IMG/VR virus record: IMGVR_UViG_2740892016_000006
Span: 1 to 50,109 of that record
DNA from: a virus
Taxonomy: Duplodnaviria; Heunggongvirae; Uroviricota; Caudoviricetes
DNA: 50,109 nt
Strand: one strand, 5' to 3'
A program made the position numbers and the translations under genes. Of the stretch, positions 13,391 to 37,579 are shown one piece after another; the stretch's first letter is position 1; every line of letters begins with the position of its first letter. A model generated the notes under the pieces. That model saw nothing but the letters and a program-made list of their open reading frames with translations. It had not been told where the DNA came from and did not search any database.

Positions 13391-14359
13391 TTAGTAGGTT
13401 ATTTTTGTTGCGAATACTTCGCCTTTTACGATGGCTGTTATGATATTTTTAGCAACATCTTCTGATGCGCCAACCTTGATAAGGTCAGCAAGTATTTTGT
13501 TATTTACTTCTTTCCGGTGAGCTTTATCCTTTGCTCTACGCTCTTCTTCGTCCTTGATTCTTTTTTCTTCTGCTATTCTGGCTTGCTCTTTTGCTTCAGC
13601 TTCGCGCCGGATTCGTTCAGCCTCCTCCTGTGCTTTTCGGCGTTCTGCTTCAATTGCCGCCTGCTTTTCTCTTTCAGCTCGTTCTGCTGCCTCTTTTGCT
13701 TCGCGCTGTGCTCGTTGCTCGGCTTCAATGCGTTCACGCTCTGCACGTTCCGCTGCGGCCTTAGCTTCTGCTTCTCGCCTTGCTGCTGCTTCAATTTCGG
13801 CTTTTGCCTTTGCTTCGGCTTCTGCTCTGGCTTTCTCTTCAGCTTCTCTTTTTAAGCGTTCTTCATGCTCTCGCTTTTCCTGCTCCGCTTTGAGTCTTGC
13901 CTCTTCTCTTTGGCGGTCAAATTCGCGATCCATCAAAATCGCTATTTCATGGTCAGACTCAATTTGCTTTGCGAGAGCTTCAGCTGCTGCCTTAGCTTCT
14001 TCTTCGGCTTTAATCCGCGCCTGTTCTTCCTCATAATCAGTAAGAGGCTGGCGCGCCTTGGCTTTCAGTTCATCAAGGCGATCGCGCACTGTCTTGCGGT
14101 TGGCATCAATTAGCTTTGGAATTTCCTTCAGTTCAGCAACAAGGTCTTTGCCAAGACCATCGAGATATGTTTTCGTCTGCGCAACTTTATACGCCAGAGA
14201 AGCGATCTCCTTTCTGCCCTTTGCCGTTGTGATATCAGGCACAAAGGACATAACTTCACGTTCAACCTTTTGAAGGATTTCTTCAATCTGGTCGGCAGAC
14301 TGAAATACAGTCATTGCATTTGCTTTTTCAATAACAACTAAATCTGTTACTTCACTCAT
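13391..14359 (-). CDS. Early-left protein with long E/R/K/A-rich single-alpha-helix-like central region (322 aa)
   Basis: Central segment is almost entirely EEARLKAEQEKREHEERLKREAEEKARAEAEAKAKAE-type repeats between globular termini. Confidence 0.6.
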   Translation of the reverse strand: MSEVTDLVVIEKANAMTVFQSADQIEEILQKVEREVMSFVPDITTAKGRKEIASLAYKVAQTKTYLDGLGKDLVAELKEIPKLIDANRKTVRDRLDELKAKARQPLTDYEEEQARIKAEEEAKAAAEALAKQIESDHEIAILMDREFDRQREEARLKAEQEKREHEERLKREAEEKARAEAEAKAKAEIEAAARREAEAKAAAERAERERIEAEQRAQREAKEAAERAEREKQAAIEAERRKAQEEAERIRREAEAKEQARIAEEKRIKDEEERRAKDKAHRKEVNNKILADLIKVGASEDVAKNIITAIVKGEVFATKITY

Positions 14360-15399: not shown

Positions 15400-15666
15400 T
15401 TATTTTTTCTTTCCAAGAGATGGAAGACCTCCAGAATAATCTGGACCACTTGAACGATGCATTTGATACAATATTGCGTTTTTGTTGGCGTTTAGTGGCT
15501 TTGTTGCGAAAGAAATTTTTTCTCGTTTTACATCTCTTATCATCATCAACTCACGTTCTGATGCTTTTGGATGATAATCATTGATATGCTTCCATGCTGC
15601 CTTGGCGCTGAATTTTCTTCCACATAAAGGGCAATAGCATTTATATGATACTTGTTTGCTAGTCAT
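15400..15666 (-). CDS. Hypothetical small zinc-finger-like protein (88 aa)
   Basis: CPLCG...H...H pattern. Confidence 0.45.
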   Translation of the reverse strand: MTSKQVSYKCYCPLCGRKFSAKAAWKHINDYHPKASERELMMIRDVKREKISFATKPLNANKNAILYQMHRSSGPDYSGGLPSLGKKK

Positions 15667-15668
15667 TT

Positions 15669-15977
15669 CTATCTCGCCGTAATTGATTTCATTGACCTGT
15701 AACCAGCAGCATACAGTGCAACTTCAGGCAAACAAACGCTTCCGCCATTCGCATCTGTATTTGATTTACTGATGATGCCGAGTGATATTGCTTTTTCAGA
15801 AAGACTTAAACGCTTTCTCGGTTCTTCCTGAACAGCTTCCTCACTGTCTGTGCCGAAGATCGAATCGATGATGTTGCAGATGGAATCACGCTCGATAGCC
15901 AGCTTTCTGCGCCGCTCATGACGGCGAGTTTTGGCATTTCCTGCAAATGTTGATTTTCCGTACACGATTACCGTCAT
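15669..15977 (-). CDS. N-type antiterminator (P22 gp24-like arginine-rich motif)
   Basis: GNAKTRRHERRRKLAIERD matches the recalled P22 N boxB-binding peptide; start taken at internal Met. Confidence 0.65.
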   Translation of the reverse strand: MTVIVYGKSTFAGNAKTRRHERRRKLAIERDSICNIIDSIFGTDSEEAVQEEPRKRLSLSEKAISLGIISKSNTDANGGSVCLPEVALYAAGYRSMKSITAR

Positions 15978-16061
15978 GATGTTTTCCTCATGTGAAATGG
16001 CTTTGGTGGTGATGCGCCAGGTGCTGATCTTCTGGTTGCTGTCGTTGCAGCTGCAATTCAC

Positions 16062-16240
16062 ATCACCGCCAACCCCATCTCGTTTGGTATCTGTTTGCGC
16101 TTTGTCAGCGCCCCATCGAAGTTAAAGAGCCTGCCAATCTGTTCCGTTTGGCTTCCAGCTTCCTGCTGATGGCGATAATAATGAACCAATAGTTCGATAT
16201 TATCAAGAACTATTGGTACGAAAATTTTGTGATTTATTAA
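16062..16240. promoter_or_regulatory. Probable PL/OL control region upstream of N; includes inverted repeat CCAATAGTTC (16186-16195) / GAACTATTGG (16206-16215)
   Basis: Position upstream of N on the minus strand; palindrome seen in sequence. Confidence 0.35.
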
Positions 16241-16442
16241 CTCTACGAAATATGATTTTGATATATAAGGAAATTTATTTTTGTAAATGTTGCGGATGAG
16301 GGTTATGCGGCAGGGATCAGAATTTCGTGGTTTAGCAAGTTGTATCTATCAATTTTTCAATAAATACAATTGGTTATGTGTTATTAGGTGTGGGGATCGT
16401 GAGGCAAAGAAAACCCGGCGCTGAGGCCGGGTTATGTAGGCA

Positions 16443-16544
16443 TTATGCGGCTTTTTTGGTGTGTGCTGACGAGCGAGCCAGAATCTCGTTGATGAGAGCT
16501 CTCAGGGTCATTGCATCTTTGTGCAGAGTGGACATGGTTTTCAT
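16443..16544 (-). CDS. Possible small protein (33 aa) downstream of the rex-position gene
   Basis: Hand translation MKTMSTLHKDAMTLRALINEILARSSAHTKKAA with GAGGA SD upstream. Confidence 0.3.
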   Translation of the reverse strand: MKTMSTLHKDAMTLRALINEILARSSAHTKKAA

Positions 16545-16613
16545 TGCGTTTCCTCGGTTTATTTTATGGTACTAGCCTAGTTCAAATAGACTATATGAAA
16601 TCTTGATTTACTA

Positions 16614-16994
16614 TTAAGGCCATTGGGTTGGTGGAAGATCGTGGGTTTTTATCTGCGTATTTGCTTCCACACATTTATCATAGTCTAATTTCTCTACAGC
16701 AAGCAATAGTGATTCAGCATACATCAATCCTTGTTTGATGTTCATAACATTTATGCTTGCACTTGCGGCATCCATATCCTTTGCTGTCTCTACCATGTGC
16801 TCAAAGCTTTGAGCAATAGAGTCAACACCGTTTTTCATCCTTGTAAACACTAATTTTAGCTCATCAAGGCTTGGATTCGTTAGATCATACATCCCATGCA
16901 TTCCATGGGCTTCGAATAACTCTGACAACGATCTAAGGGCGAAGTTCACAGAATCAATAACTTGGTCGTACTTTTTCTTATCAAGATCATTCAT
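16614..16994 (-). CDS. Hypothetical protein in the rex/sieB position immediately downstream of cI (126 aa)
   Basis: Co-oriented with cI, 117 nt after its stop; no family recognised. Confidence 0.55.
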   Translation of the reverse strand: MNDLDKKKYDQVIDSVNFALRSLSELFEAHGMHGMYDLTNPSLDELKLVFTRMKNGVDSIAQSFEHMVETAKDMDAASASINVMNIKQGLMYAESLLLAVEKLDYDKCVEANTQIKTHDLPPTQWP

Positions 16995-17111
16995 TAAAAA
17001 TATAACCTTTTAACTAATTGATATTGCTGCATTTATATCAATATATGCATTTCACATATATCACCCAAACGTCTCTTCAGGCCACTGGCTATCAGCTATG
17101 TGACGATGAAG

Positions 17112-17819
17112 TCACGAACTTTTCAGCCACTCCCTTGCCTCGATGTCATCCAGATGGCGAGATTGCTTCAGAATACCAGCCACATACTCCACCTTTGCTA
17201 CTTGATGATAAGGCAACGTTATTGGCCTATGGTCCTGGTTGATGCTTGTAAACTGGTATTCTCCATCTCTGTCATAGCCAAGAATCTTGATCATGTTGTG
17301 TCCTTCGATGGTTCTGACAAACACCTCATCACCCGGGAAGACTTTGGTGTTAGGCTCAATGAGTACATATTCTCCTGATTTTATTCTGGGCCACATGCTG
17401 TCTCCTTTCACACGAAGACCAAAGGCATCTGGATCATCGCTATAAATTTTGAGCCACCCATCGCGCTCTTCGGTCATCTCGATGGCACCATCAACACCAA
17501 GAATTGCCTCACCAACCACGCGCACTAACCCTTTTTTTAATTTGCCAACAAATGAAAGAGTATCTTCATCATTCGCTCCATTTAACGAAGTTCCGTGCTG
17601 AAGCCAAACAACATCAACGTTTAGAAATTTCGCAAGCGCATTCATTTTTTCCTGACGCGGTAAAGACTCAGCATTAAACCATTTGCTAACGCCTTTGGAC
17701 GAAAGAGAAAGGGCACGGGCTATGGCCATCCCCCTACCATGTTCATCAAGACCAGCTTCTTTACAGGCTTGCGCTAGCCGCTGGGCGAATTCTTTGCGCA
17801 CTTTTTCATTCTGAACCAT
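17112..17819 (-). CDS. cI: CI-type prophage repressor (HTH + S24 LexA-like peptidase domain)
   Basis: N-terminal HTH, C-terminal GDSMWP autocleavage motif, divergent from cro. Confidence 0.9.
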   Translation of the reverse strand: MVQNEKVRKEFAQRLAQACKEAGLDEHGRGMAIARALSLSSKGVSKWFNAESLPRQEKMNALAKFLNVDVVWLQHGTSLNGANDEDTLSFVGKLKKGLVRVVGEAILGVDGAIEMTEERDGWLKIYSDDPDAFGLRVKGDSMWPRIKSGEYVLIEPNTKVFPGDEVFVRTIEGHNMIKILGYDRDGEYQFTSINQDHRPITLPYHQVAKVEYVAGILKQSRHLDDIEAREWLKSS

Positions 17820-17820
17820 G

Positions 17821-17890
17821 AGTACGATACTAAAGCACTTGCAAAAACTTTCAGTTCAATCATAATGCGTACTGAAAGTACGAAAAAGGA
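17821..17890. promoter_or_regulatory. OR operator / PR-PRM region between cI and cro
   Basis: Inverted repeat ACTTTCAGT (17847-17855) / ACTGAAAGT (17871-17879) and repeated AGTACGA motifs in the 78-nt divergent intergenic region. Confidence 0.5.
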
Positions 17891-17897
17891 TATTCCT

Positions 17898-18125
17898 ATG
17901 CAAAATCTTGATGAGCCGATTAAAGGTGTCGGCATCCCTGAAGTTGCGAAGGCTTGTGGAGTTAGCGAAAGGGCTGTCTATAAGTGGCTCAAAAACGGCT
18001 TCCTCCCTAAGACTGAGTTTTTTGGGAAAACTAAATACGCATCAAAAATCGAAGAGATTTCTGGTGGCAAATATCAAGCAAGCGAAATGCTTGAAATAAG
18101 CAAAAAGAACCTTCTGGCTGCATAA
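17898..18125 (+). CDS. Cro-like HTH regulator (start at second ATG with AAGGA SD)
   Basis: Small HTH protein (GIPEVAKACGVSERAVYKWL) divergent from cI. Confidence 0.6.
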   Translation: MQNLDEPIKGVGIPEVAKACGVSERAVYKWLKNGFLPKTEFFGKTKYASKIEEISGGKYQASEMLEISKKNLLAA

Positions 18126-18231
18126 GTAACACCGCTCTTTATCAATCTGCACCGCCGACAACGCGGTAACTAATTAATCACTCATCGAAAGATGAGTATT
18201 AGTGATTATTTACCTATGGAAATAGTAAGAA

Positions 18232-18528
18232 ATGGAACAAACAAGTTACAGCAAACTATCACAGCGCGACGTTGATCGCGCAGAAACAGATTTACTCATC
18301 AACCTGTCAACGCTTACCCAGCGCGGTCTGGCAAAGATGATTGGCTGTCATGAATCGAAGATAAGCAGAACGGACTGGAGATTTATTGCTTCGGTCTTGT
18401 GTGCTTTCGGAATGGCATCAGACATCAGTCCGATTAGCAGGGCTTTTAAGTATGCGCTTGATGGACTCACCAATAAAAAACGCCCGGCGGCAACCGAGCG
18501 TTCTGAACAAATCCAGATGGAATTCTGA
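18232..18528 (+). CDS. cII: CII transcriptional activator
   Basis: C-terminus TNKKRPAATERSEQIQMEF matches recalled lambda CII. Confidence 0.85.
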   Translation: MEQTSYSKLSQRDVDRAETDLLINLSTLTQRGLAKMIGCHESKISRTDWRFIASVLCAFGMASDISPISRAFKYALDGLTNKKRPAATERSEQIQMEF

Positions 18529-35682: not shown

Positions 35683-36160
35683 TTTAGTTCTTGCGGCATT
35701 ACGTAAGCTCGGTGTGGCATCAAATGCCACGTTAACCGATGTCGAACCGCAGTCTATGGAAGACGGCGTCAACGACCTTGAAATGATGATGGCTGAATGG
35801 CTTGGCGGTGATGCGTCACCTGGTATCAACGTTGGCTACATTTTTGCTGATGCAGATGTTGCTCCGGATCCGGGCGATGAGCACGGCTTATCAAATAACG
35901 CTATAAATGCCGTCATTTTCAACCTTGCCTGCCGCATTGCTCCAGATTATGCGCTGGAAGCGTCTGCAAAACTTATAACCACTGCCAGATACGGGAAAGA
36001 GCGACTCGTCAAACTGTCTGCAATGGACAGAGCAAAAGCCGCTAAATGTAAGTCCGGTTATCCAAACCGTATGCCTGTTGGTAGCGGCAATCAGTTGGCG
36101 AAGTGGAACGGTTGGAATTACTTCCACCGGAAGGGACCTTGCGATAACGGGAGCGAATAA
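35660..36160 (+). CDS. Head completion / tail adaptor protein (P22 gp4-like)
   Basis: Size (166 aa) and position; start at MNLTTKG overlapping upstream ORF. Confidence 0.65.
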
Positions 36161-37579
36161 ATGCCGATTCAGCAACTTCCGCTTATGAAAGGTGTCGGCA
36201 AAGACTTCCGAAACGCCGACTATATCGACTATCTGCCAGTGAATATGCTGGCTACACCCAAAGAAATCCTCAACAGCAGCGGATATCTTCGCTCATTCCC
36301 GGGCATTGCCAAACACTCTGATGTAAACGGCGTATCGCGCGGCGTCGAGTACAACATGGCGCAGAATGCTGTTTATCGTGTGTGTGGCGGCAAGCTCTAC
36401 AAAGGCGAAAGCGAAGTCGGTGATGTCGCCGGAAGTGGTCGCGTATCAATGGCGCATGGTCGGACATCACAGGCGGTAGGCGTTAATGGTCAACTGGTCG
36501 AGTATCTCTATGATGGCACGGCTAAAACCGTCTCAAACTGGCCTACAGACAGCGGATTCACACAGTACGAGTTAGGTTCAGTTCGCGACATTACGCGCTT
36601 ACGTGGGCGTTATGCGTGGTCAAAAGACGGCACTGATTCATGGTTTATCACTGACCTTGAAGATGAATCGCATCCTGACCGTTACAGCGCACAATATCGT
36701 GCCGAGTCTCAGCCGGACGGCATCATCGGTATCGGAACATGGCGAGACTTCATCGTCTGCTTTGGTTCATCGACGATTGAATATTTTTCCCTGACTGGGG
36801 CAACCACCGTTGGTGCTGCTTTGTATGTCGCCCAGCCATCGTTAATGGTGCAGAAAGGCATTGCCGGAACTTACTGCAAAACGCCGTTTGCTGATTCCTA
36901 TGCGTTTATCAGCAATCCGGCAACAGGTGCGCCGTCTGTATACATCATCGGCTCCGGTCAGGTATCACCAATCGCCAGCGCGAGCATTGAGAAAATTCTC
37001 CGCTCCTACACTGCTGATGAACTGGCTGATGGTGTAATGGAATCGCTGCGATTTGATGCGCATGAGTTGCTGATTATCCATCTTCCGCGCCATGTACTGG
37101 TGTACGACGCATCTTCAAGCGCCAATGGTCCGCAATGGTGTGTACTGAAAACAGGCCTGGATGACGATGTGTACCGCGCTATCGACTTCATTTACGAAGG
37201 CAATCAGATAACGTGCGGAGATAAGCTGGAATCCGTGACCGGGAAATTGCAGTTCGACATTAGCAGCCAGTACGACAAGCAACAGGAACACCTGCTGTTT
37301 ACTCCGTTGTTCAAAGCGGATAACGCCAGGGTGTTTGACTTTGAGGTTGAATCGTCAACTGGCGTTGCGCAGTACGCCGACCGCCTTTTTCTCTCTGCAA
37401 CCACTGACGGCATCAATTACGGACGTGAGCAGATGATTGAGCAGAATGAACCGTTCGTTTACGACAAACGCGTTTTGTGGAAGCGAGTCGGGCGCATCAG
37501 GAAAAATGTTGGCTTCAAATTGCGCGTTATCACGAAGTCACCTGTCACTCTGTCTGGCTGCCAGATAAGGATTGAGTAA
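36161..37579 (+). CDS. Tail accessory protein (P22 gp10-like, 472 aa)
   Basis: Size and position. Confidence 0.75.

What the first reader, a model, noticed from the sequence alone, without database searches (positions are those of the whole stretch)
16443..16994. Unrecognised genes in the rex/sieB position immediately downstream of cI
A 126-aa ORF (16614-16994) follows cI in the same orientation and would be co-transcribed from the maintenance promoter in the lysogen, the locus where lambdoid phages carry exclusion/defence genes such as rexAB or sieB. A possible 33-aa ORF with its own SD follows it (16443-16544). Neither resembles a family I recognise.
Basis: inference. Interest (0 to 1): 0.45.

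Follow-up and report, generated by a model that had tools for sequence, protein, structure and literature searches.

The report
Unknown two-gene cassette replacing rexAB
Right after the prophage repressor gene, exactly where phage lambda keeps its rexAB anti-phage genes, this prophage carries a rare, conserved and uncharacterised pair of genes (a 126-aa helical protein and a 33-aa peptide) that also travels on tiny plasmids, which makes it a good but unproven candidate for a new toxin-antitoxin-like or anti-phage module.

Summary
Both ORFs are real genes. ORF126 (16614-16994, -) belongs to a very small family: 18 clusters among 1.8 billion proteins, PHROG 16322, with no Pfam, NCBIfam or PADLOC match. 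A high-confidence model shows a plain four-helix bundle with no informative structural neighbour. ORF33 (16443-16544, -) follows it in all 15 loci compared, and a matching small ORF was also read on a sixteenth, a second plasmid (L052/L053). ORF33 is under purifying selection and nearly always ends in K-A-A.

The flanks of the pair are lambda DNA, namely the 3' end of cI on one side and the t_imm terminator on the other. The cassette therefore sits exactly in the rexA-rexB slot, behind at least six different repressor types, and no terminator separates it from cI.

The same pair also occupies the sieA slot of a P22-like prophage, a nin region, tail-fibre ends of prophages and an IS1595-flanked island. 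It is the only cargo of two unrelated 3-4 kb Rep3 plasmids.

It is unrelated to RexA, RexB or SieB and has no membrane segments.

Best reading (about 0.4): a self-contained toxin-antitoxin-like stabilisation or abortive-infection module. The acidic bundle protein would pair with a basic peptide whose C-terminal tail resembles a ClpX degron. The function is inferred and was not tested.

The parts
17112..17819 (-). cI-type repressor (HTH_3 + Peptidase_S24). This is the upstream gene of the presumed operon.
   Evidence: Pfam PF00717 E = 4e-16 and PF01381; phrog_4 transcriptional repressor.
17060..17091 (-). Scar of a lambda-type cI 3' end (…QWPEETFG-stop), lying after the resident cI stop codon. 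It marks the right-hand boundary of the exchanged slot.
   Evidence: BLASTN against lambda 37226-37257, 94% identity. In L002 the same sequence is the true end of a lambda-CTD cI gene.
17018..17068 (-). Candidate weak promoter TTGGGT-17-TATATT (17040-17068) overlapping a 7-bp inverted repeat TTGATAT-N10-ATATCAA (17018-17041). Its function is unknown.
   Evidence: Read from the sequence. My own scan scores it 8/12. It falls below the threshold of the promoter tool.
16614..16994 (-). Gene A: 126-aa acidic (charge about -8) cytoplasmic four-helix-bundle protein. It is the founding member of a tiny uncharacterised family (phrog_16322).
   Evidence: AF2 model with pLDDT 90.3 and pTM 0.83, helices 3-37, 43-71, 74-101 and 105-117. 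Charge and absence of TM segments.
16545..16613 (-). 69-nt A-B spacer with a GAGGA Shine-Dalgarno sequence at 16551-16555. It also holds a promoter-like match TTAATA-16-TATAGT (16590-16617).
   Evidence: Most Enterobacterales copies carry a GC-rich hairpin in this spacer; in the window copy the hairpin is weak.
16443..16544 (-). Gene B: 33-aa basic (charge about +3.7) amphipathic helical peptide ending in …TKKAA. It is conserved as the downstream partner of gene A.
16412..16433 (-). Intrinsic terminator that ends the cI-A-B unit. It is homologous to lambda t_imm.
   Evidence: Terminator scan; identical hairpin in lambda after rexB.
16312..16435 (-). Lambda-homologous left flank (t_imm and the DNA between rexB and OL). 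It marks the left-hand boundary of the slot.
   Evidence: BLASTN against lambda, 87% over 124 nt. This is also the only part of the query shared with about 150 Stx and lambdoid phages.

Best explanation
A and B form a self-contained, horizontally mobile two-gene module. In this prophage it has replaced rexA-rexB. It is most likely transcribed with cI from PRM/PRE and terminated at t_imm, so it would be made in the lysogen.

The most likely mode of action is toxin-antitoxin-like. The acidic four-helix-bundle protein A and the basic single-helix peptide B would form a complex. B carries a conserved C-terminal …K-K/Q-A-A tail that resembles C-terminal ClpX recognition tags, and it would be the short-lived partner. 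When supply of B fails or B is titrated (loss of the plasmid or prophage, or shut-off of host expression by an infecting phage), free A would act on a host or phage target and stop growth. The outcome would be plasmid or prophage stabilisation and/or abortive infection.

Shown here: gene reality, conservation of the pair, exact rex-slot position, distribution across mobile elements, the fold, and the absence of membrane segments.

Inferred: co-transcription with cI, formation of an A-B complex, lability of B, which partner is the effector, and any phenotype.
For: 1. The pair is always together and in the same order, with a 21-85-nt spacer and a terminator, in 15/15 loci from Escherichia, Klebsiella, Pectobacterium, Pantoea, Aeromonas phage AsXd-1 and AT-rich metagenomic replicons.
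2. The peptide is under purifying selection. Its one deeply conserved feature is the C-terminal KAA: in the small-protein search (19 clusters) nearly every sequence retrieved ends in KAA, apart from one KEAA ending and one frameshifted copy, and the L011 copy ends KEVA.
3. The C-terminal ClpX tags ssrA …ALAA, RseA …VAA and MuA RRKKAI are listed in PMC8138137.
4. Distribution is that of addiction or defence modules:
 - the rex slot behind at least 6 repressor types;
 - the sieA slot after mnt in a P22-like immI region;
 - a nin region;
 - tail-fibre ends and lysogenic-conversion ends of prophages;
 - an IS1595-flanked island with an HTH gene;
 - the only accessory cargo of two unrelated small mobilizable Rep3 plasmids (3.1 kb, circular permutation shown, and 3.9 kb).
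5. The cI-N interval is a recognised mosaic hotspot that holds the abortive-infection systems RexAB and BstA (PMC8585504).
6. Charges are complementary, A about -8 and B about +3.7, and both are soluble.
7. B has a strong Shine-Dalgarno sequence in 13/15 loci, and A a weak one in 12/15.
8. No terminator lies between cI and A.
Against: - There is no homology to any known toxin, antitoxin or defence protein.
- The fold is a generic four-helix bundle with no significant structural neighbour and no evident catalytic motif.
- B has no DNA-binding domain for autoregulation, and 33 aa would be unusually small for a protein antitoxin.
- Many copies have a hairpin between A and B, sometimes followed by a U-run. 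This could lower B relative to A and weakens the stoichiometry argument.
- The KKAA tail could serve another purpose, such as partner binding.
- No expression or phenotype data exist for this family.
Confidence: 0.4

Rival explanations
1. A non-abortive exclusion or interference factor. The A-B complex, or A alone, would bind and neutralise a specific protein or nucleic acid of incoming phages or competing mobile elements without harming the host. B would act as a cofactor or specificity subunit.
For: The pair sits in slots known for exclusion and defence genes, namely the rex slot and the sieA slot. It is a small soluble helical protein of the kind that often acts by binding. No catalytic motif was found.
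Against: Classical exclusion proteins at these loci (SieA, SieB, RexB) are membrane proteins, and A and B have no TM segment. Being the sole cargo of 3-4 kb plasmids fits a stabilisation module better than a phage-specific blocker.
Confidence: 0.2
2. A modulator of a host process that benefits mobile elements in general. For example, a decoy or inhibitor of ClpXP or another AAA+ protease, or a regulator of SOS or induction. B's degron-like tail would engage the protease, and A would deliver or buffer it.
For: The KKAA tail resembles ClpX tags. The neighbours are repeatedly SOS- or induction-related: cI (S24), umuDC in Klebsiella, a DinI-like gene in AsXd-1 (my reading of the translated ORF), and mnt/arc/ant. 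From my own knowledge, replication initiators of phages and plasmids are ClpX clients.
Against: These neighbourhoods are largely explained by the cassette sitting in lysogeny-expressed or end-of-prophage slots. The umuDC genes are convergent and belong to an inserted island. There is no similarity to known protease adaptors or inhibitors.
Confidence: 0.12
3. An anti-defence or host-takeover gene pair of the phage's lytic programme that merely happens to lie next to cI.
For: One copy lies in the nin region of a lambdoid prophage, which is delayed-early in lambda. Small acidic helical proteins are common among anti-defence proteins (my own knowledge).
Against: In the rex slot the genes point away from PL/PR and share the cI transcription unit. 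The sieA slot is likewise lysogen-expressed. Presence on tiny non-phage plasmids and on an IS-flanked island does not fit a phage lytic function.
Confidence: 0.07
4. Non-functional filler or decaying remnants of ORFs in a recombination hotspot.
For: The family is rare: 32 of 5426 complete E. coli genomes and 18 clusters worldwide.
Against: Both ORFs are intact in every locus checked. There is third-position excess, and invariant residues are encoded by several codons. A is conserved from 100% down to about 25% identity across hosts with 33-50% GC. The apparent 73-75-aa truncations are mis-called start codons.
Confidence: 0.02

Closest known systems
RexA-RexB of phage lambda (abortive infection)
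   Same: Same chromosomal slot to the nucleotide: between the 3' end of cI and t_imm, in the same orientation and with the same terminator. Both are two genes made in the lysogen together with the repressor.
   Different: No sequence similarity to RexA or RexB. The cassette is 0.55 kb against 1.4 kb. B is a soluble 33-aa basic helix, whereas RexB is a 144-aa multi-pass membrane channel. A is 126 aa against 279 aa for RexA.
BstA of Salmonella prophage BTP1 (abortive infection with aba self-immunity)
   Same: Encoded directly downstream of the prophage repressor and presumed to share its promoter. It is associated with many repressor types (PMC8585504).
   Different: BstA is a single, much larger protein acting at phage replication sites. 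No shared domain was detected for A or B in Pfam or PADLOC.
SieA / SieB superinfection-exclusion genes of P22 and lambda
   Same: In Pectobacterium the cassette lies after mnt in the immI region, which is where P22 carries sieA (position from my own knowledge; locus). All are lysogen-expressed accessory genes.
   Different: SieB lies at a different locus (left of N) and shows no meaningful similarity. Sie proteins are membrane proteins, and A and B are not.
Type II toxin-antitoxin modules, especially those with a minimal antitoxin lacking a DNA-binding domain (for example paaR2-paaA2-parE2 of an O157:H7 cryptic prophage, PMC8630535, listed)
   Same: Compact bicistronic module with an acidic and a basic partner. 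It occurs on plasmids, prophages and IS-flanked islands. One variant has a separate upstream HTH gene. The small partner has a degron-like tail.
   Different: No homology to any toxin or antitoxin family. The presumed antitoxin is only 32-53 aa. Toxicity, neutralisation and lability are untested.
FliS-type four-helix-bundle chaperones that bind a helical peptide
   Same: A up-down four-helix bundle of about 120 aa paired with a short amphipathic helix. FliS appears among the low-probability Foldseek hits.
   Different: The hits are not significant (E about 1, probability 0.4-0.5). There is no sequence relation and no flagellar context.

Membership tests
RexAB (lambda) | RexA-like sensor protein (about 279 aa) | tested here: not met
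   BLASTP of A against lambda RexA gave no alignment with E <= 100. No PADLOC or Pfam hit.
RexAB (lambda) | RexB-like polytopic membrane protein (ion channel) | tested here: not met
   BLASTP of A against RexB gave no alignment. B is 33 aa, basic, with GRAVY -0.18. The maximum 19-residue hydropathy of A is 0.81, so neither has a TM segment.
RexAB (lambda) | Location between cI and t_imm in the cI transcription unit | tested here: met
   Flank homology to lambda. No terminator between cI and A, and a t_imm-like terminator after B. Transcription itself was not measured.
SieB | Homology to SieB and a location left of N in the PL operon | tested here: not met
   Only a 14-residue chance match, E = 0.1. 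sieB lies left of N in lambda and in L002.
BstA | Single large BstA protein downstream of the repressor | tested here: not met
   The position is shared. A and B are two small proteins with no domain hit in Pfam, PHROGs function classes or PADLOC.
Type II toxin-antitoxin system | Two small adjacent co-oriented genes that are always inherited together | tested here: met
   15/15 loci compared, plus a second plasmid. A family search with each partner returns a similarly tiny set: 18 clusters at 50% identity for A and 19 at 90% identity for B.
Type II toxin-antitoxin system | Toxin or antitoxin belongs to a known superfamily | tested here: not met
   No significant Pfam, NCBIfam, PADLOC or PDB-sequence hit. 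Fold searches were not significant.
Type II toxin-antitoxin system | Labile antitoxin degraded by a host AAA+ protease | tested here: inconclusive
   The conserved C-terminal K-(K/Q)-A-A tail resembles ClpX tags. Degradation was not measured.
Type II toxin-antitoxin system | Growth inhibition by one partner, neutralised by direct binding of the other | not testable with these tools
This needs experiment.
Type II toxin-antitoxin system | Occurrence on plasmids, prophages and other mobile DNA | tested here: met
Known anti-phage defence systems (PADLOC-DB 2.0) | Match to any model of a known or candidate system | tested here: not met
   No hit for A or B. The AsXd-1 homologue gives only a weak coiled-coil-like LmuB match (E = 0.007, 12.9 bits).

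The most novel reading that the evidence does not exclude
A-B is a new class of two-protein addiction or abortive-infection module. Its neutralising partner would be a 32-53-aa single-helix peptide bearing a built-in ClpX-type degron, which would be the smallest proteinaceous antitoxin known. Its effector would be a catalytically featureless four-helix bundle acting by binding an essential host or phage target. Because the module sits in the cI operon, it would tie the fate of the lysogen to continuous translation and protease activity, as a functional replacement for RexAB by an unrelated mechanism.
Probability: 0.2. Interest if true: 0.7.

Novelty: new variant of a known kind. Interest (0 to 1): 0.5.

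Why it matters
The cI-N interval of lambdoid phages has already yielded RexAB and BstA. This window shows a third, unrelated occupant of exactly the same slot.

The occupant is a portable two-gene unit that recurs in other lysogen-expressed slots and as the only cargo of tiny plasmids, so it almost certainly confers a selectable phenotype on its own. At 0.55 kb it is very easy to test.

If it proves to be a defence or addiction module, it would add a new protein family and a very small peptide partner to those catalogues. It would also supply a clean natural 'swap' for comparison with RexAB. If it instead modulates a host protease or prophage induction, it would bear on the control of lysogeny.

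Tried and rejected
- Sequence profiles gave nothing significant: Pfam, PHROGs, NCBIfam, PADLOC and PDB sequences. The recurring weak hits (HMD C-terminal helical domain, E about 0.01-0.02; DUF7373_C; ATG17-like) fall far below the curated cut-offs and look like helical-composition noise.
- The first AF2 model (20 close sequences) reached only pLDDT 68. Adding distant homologues raised it to 90.
- The idea that truncated A copies with an intact B would identify A as the toxin failed. The 73-75-aa 'fragments' are annotation start-site errors, and the full ORF is intact.
- Scans found few extra homologues. The genome-contig scan found one locus. The metagenome and IMG/VR scans with the distant subgroup found none. 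PLSDB holds no homologue.
- Rfam found no RNA family across 15600-18300.
- Read-through between A and B was considered because they share a reading frame in the window. It was rejected because the spacer length is not a multiple of three in other copies.
- Promoter predictions upstream of A are weak and not conserved, so no claim is made for an own promoter in the window copy.
- Literature searches for the protein accession and the PHROG number found nothing.

Full report
**1. What is at the coordinates**

The window from about 14 to 20 kb is a lambdoid immunity region. On the minus strand lie:
- a P22-type N gene (15669-16061; PF25694, E = 1e-36);
- the PL/OL region;
- the 33-aa ORF (16443-16544);
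- the 126-aa ORF (16614-16994);
- a 235-aa HTH + S24-peptidase repressor (17112-17819).

On the plus strand lie cro (17865-18125) and cII (18232-18528).

The small ORF has a GAGGA Shine-Dalgarno sequence 6 nt before its ATG. The only terminator-like site on this strand between cI and PL is an 8-bp GC-rich hairpin with a T-run at 16412-16433, just after the small ORF. Rfam finds no RNA family in 15600-18300.

**2. The slot is exactly lambda's rexAB slot**

BLASTN against lambda gives two matches:
- Window 16312-16435 matches lambda 35709-35828 at 87% identity. This is the t_imm hairpin immediately after rexB plus the DNA towards OL.
- Window 17060-17091 matches the last 32 nt of lambda cI at 94% identity.

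In the window the second segment lies after the resident cI stop codon (17112-17114), so it is a recombination scar. In other E. coli prophages the same sequence is the genuine end of a repressor with a lambda-type C-terminal domain, and there the 126-aa gene starts 66 nt later.

The cassette therefore replaces rexA-rexB between conserved anchors. Other phages that share the anchors hold different content in the slot, for example a single 47-aa ORF in Stx1 phage AU5Stx1. Owen et al. (PMC8585504) describe the cI-N interval as a mosaic hotspot holding rexAB in lambda and bstA in BTP1-like prophages.

sieB lies left of N.

**3. Both genes are real and always travel together**

Gene A matches phrog_16322 ('unknown function') end to end with E = 8e-89. 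It has no Pfam, NCBIfam or PADLOC assignment.

An exhaustive profile search of 1.84 billion representative proteins found only 18 clusters, all stand-alone proteins of no more than 134 aa (full-length members 109-134 aa, the shorter entries being fragments), with no domain fusions. The word-indexed search found 23 and then 35 clusters. In complete E. coli genomes the cassette occurs in 32 of 5426.

In all 15 loci I compared, a small ORF of 32-53 aa follows A after 21-85 nt and is itself followed by a hairpin terminator. The same arrangement holds on a sixteenth locus, a second plasmid. These loci come from Escherichia, Klebsiella, Pectobacterium, Pantoea, Aeromonas phage AsXd-1 and several AT-rich metagenomic replicons.

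The small proteins align with each other:

- E. coli: MKTMSTLHKDAMTLRALINEILARSSAHTKKAA
- Klebsiella: MSTLTALHKDALLMRSLINELLNRSSEQQKKAA
- Pectobacterium: MQNMNSLHKDAMLMKSLIKDLLNKSAETLKKAA
- AsXd-1: …LRGLIDDLNERAAKKKPVKKAA
- plasmid copy 1: …AEIEERAEMLKTENQKAA
- plasmid copy 2: …KAKSSLKIQKAA

Among eight Enterobacterales copies the differences by codon position are 356/207/529, and invariant residues are encoded by up to four different codons. This is the signature of selection on the peptide.

A profile search with the small proteins found 19 clusters. Nearly every sequence retrieved is 32-59 aa and ends in KAA; the exceptions are one KEAA ending and one frameshifted 78-aa copy, and the L011 copy ends KEVA.

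The apparent 73-75-aa 'truncated' A proteins in the databases are mis-called start codons. The full ORF is intact in those genomes.

**4. Where else the cassette lives**

- In the rex slot, behind at least six different repressor N-terminal domains. These include a lambda-immunity-like cI, in Escherichia and in relatives carrying an 85%-identical version.
- After mnt in the immI region (tailspike-ant-arc-mnt) of a P22-like Pectobacterium prophage. From my own knowledge, this is where P22 carries sieA.
- In the nin region of a lambdoid prophage.
- At the tail-fibre end of prophages next to yejM, in two assemblies. At the same chromosomal site in Klebsiella it lies beside an inserted umuDC-resolvase island.
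- Next to tail-fibre genes and an MBOAT acyltransferase in a myovirus-type prophage.
- After a gene I read as DinI-like in Aeromonas phage AsXd-1.
- Between IS1595 copies, with an upstream HTH_3 gene.
- As the only accessory genes of two small mobilizable Rep3 plasmids. One is 3.1 kb (Rep3, A, B, Mob_Pre) and was recovered as circular permutations from independent samples. The other is 3.9 kb with a Rep only 27% identical and a MobC/relaxase pair.

This is the distribution of a self-sufficient 'moron' that is selectable in its own right.

**5. What the proteins look like**

A is acidic (net charge about -8). B is basic (about +3.7 in the window copy). Neither has a hydrophobic stretch that could span a membrane.

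With a 31-sequence alignment that includes the distant homologues, AlphaFold2 gives a confident model (pLDDT 90.3, pTM 0.83). It is an up-down four-helix bundle with helices 3-37, 43-71, 74-101 and 105-117.

The structure searches gave nothing significant:
- Foldseek against PDB and BFVD found no hit with E <= 1e-3. The best matches are de novo designed bundles.

The best conserved positions are G31, G34, P41, N85, the segment I86-G89, A93/E94, L96 and C108. They cluster at the helix 1-2 junction and in helix 3, and they do not resemble a known catalytic motif.

A shows no similarity to RexA, RexB or SieB.

**6. How it most likely works**

*Shown:*
- It is a conserved A-B pair.
- It sits in the cI transcription unit, with no intervening terminator.
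- It recurs on prophages, plasmids and IS islands.
- Both products are soluble and have complementary charge.

*Inferred:*
- A and B form a complex, a single amphipathic helix docking on a four-helix bundle.
- B's invariant K-(K/Q)-A-A tail resembles the C-terminal tags recognised by ClpX. Examples are ssrA …ALAA, RseA …VAA and MuA RRKKAI (PMC8138137). B would therefore be the rapidly turned-over partner.
- Continuous synthesis of B would keep A in check.
- Loss of the element, or shut-off of host gene expression by an infecting phage, would free A. The result would be stabilisation and/or abortive infection.

B has a strong Shine-Dalgarno sequence in 13 of 15 loci and A a weak one in 12 of 15, which fits this picture. 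However, many copies also have a GC-rich hairpin between A and B, sometimes followed by a U-run. That hairpin could act in the opposite direction, so the stoichiometry argument is weak.

I put about 0.4 on this toxin-antitoxin-like or abortive-infection reading. The rivals are:
- a non-abortive interference factor (0.2);
- a modulator of a host protease or of SOS/induction (0.12);
- a lytic-phase anti-defence pair (0.07);
- non-functional filler (0.02), which the conservation pattern effectively excludes.

**7. Comparison with what is known**

Functionally and by position, the nearest analogues are RexAB and BstA (same slot, lysogen-expressed, abortive infection) and compact type II TA modules. 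By membership it belongs to none of them. The defining proteins of RexAB, SieB and BstA are absent, and no toxin or antitoxin superfamily is matched (see the membership table).

No paper in the searchable library mentions the protein accession or the PHROG number.

**8. Verdict**

The rex slot and the 'unrecognised' status are correct. The reference to sieB is wrong. A defence role is plausible but untested.
- Novelty: a new, uncharacterised protein pair of a known general kind (a lysogen-expressed accessory module in the immunity-region hotspot).
- Interest is moderate (0.5). Many prophage morons are unknown. This one stands out for four reasons: the exact swap with rexAB, a deeply conserved 33-aa partner with a degron-like tail, its role as sole cargo of tiny plasmids, and its trivial size for testing.

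Noticed in passing
window 17060-17091: The last ~32 nt of a lambda-type cI gene (…QWPEETFG-stop) persist as a scar downstream of the resident, different cI stop codon. This is a footprint of repressor-module exchange by recombination at the cI 3' end.
   Followed up: yes
window 17018-17041: A 7-bp inverted repeat TTGATAT-N10-ATATCAA lies between a weak promoter-like TTGGGT-17-TATATT and the ORF126 start codon. It is conserved in the E. coli copies of the cassette. It could be an operator, but this is unexplained.
   Followed up: partly
L004, L008, L017, L033, L036, L037, L040, L041 (A-B spacers); window 16545-16613: Most Enterobacterales copies carry a GC-rich hairpin of differing sequence between the large and small genes, in two cases followed by a U-run. 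The window copy has only a weak AU-rich stem. This may tune the A:B ratio.
   Followed up: partly
L014/L015 (3.1 kb) and L052 (3.9 kb): Two unrelated small mobilizable Rep3 plasmids (33-37% GC, Rep proteins 27% identical) carry the A-B pair directly after rep as their only accessory genes. L015 is a circular permutation of L014. PLSDB holds no homologue of the large protein and no close match to the 3.1-kb plasmid.
   Followed up: yes
L047-L050 (Klebsiella), proteins P0021-P0023, P0046: Database entries of 67-75 aa for this family are N-terminally mis-called genes that start at internal Met53. In the Klebsiella loci checked (L047-L050, for P0023) the full 125-aa ORF is intact. P0046 in addition has an internal deletion relative to the window protein.
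   Followed up: yes
L039 and protein P0057: These are frameshift variants within the A-run that encodes the KK of the small peptide's KKAA tail. They could be homopolymer sequencing errors or genuine slippage-prone sites.
   Followed up: no
window 16412-16433 and terminators of L008, L017, L033, L036, L037, L040, L041: Nearly all Enterobacterales copies end in the same type of hairpin, ACCCGGC-loop-GCCGGGTTTT, which is also lambda t_imm. In Pectobacterium even the trailing TTTTCTTTGCCTCA is shared. This suggests that the terminator either travels with the cassette or serves as a recombination anchor.
   Followed up: partly
window 15669-16061: The mechanically listed 130-aa GTG ORF for N probably starts later, at the ATG around 15984 (MTVIVYGKSTFAGNAKTRRHERRRKLAIER…). 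The Pfam N_peptide match begins at residue 29.
   Followed up: no
L011-L013: In the most divergent subgroup the pair lies about 460 nt downstream of a 113-aa HTH_3/HTH_19 gene, and the whole unit is bracketed by IS1595 transposase genes. This could be a three-component or transposon-borne version.
   Followed up: no
window 13391-14359: A 322-aa minus-strand ORF in the PL operon has a long, highly charged, low-complexity Ala/Glu/Lys/Arg-rich central region (…EAKAKAEIEAAARREAEAK…). It was not examined.
   Followed up: no
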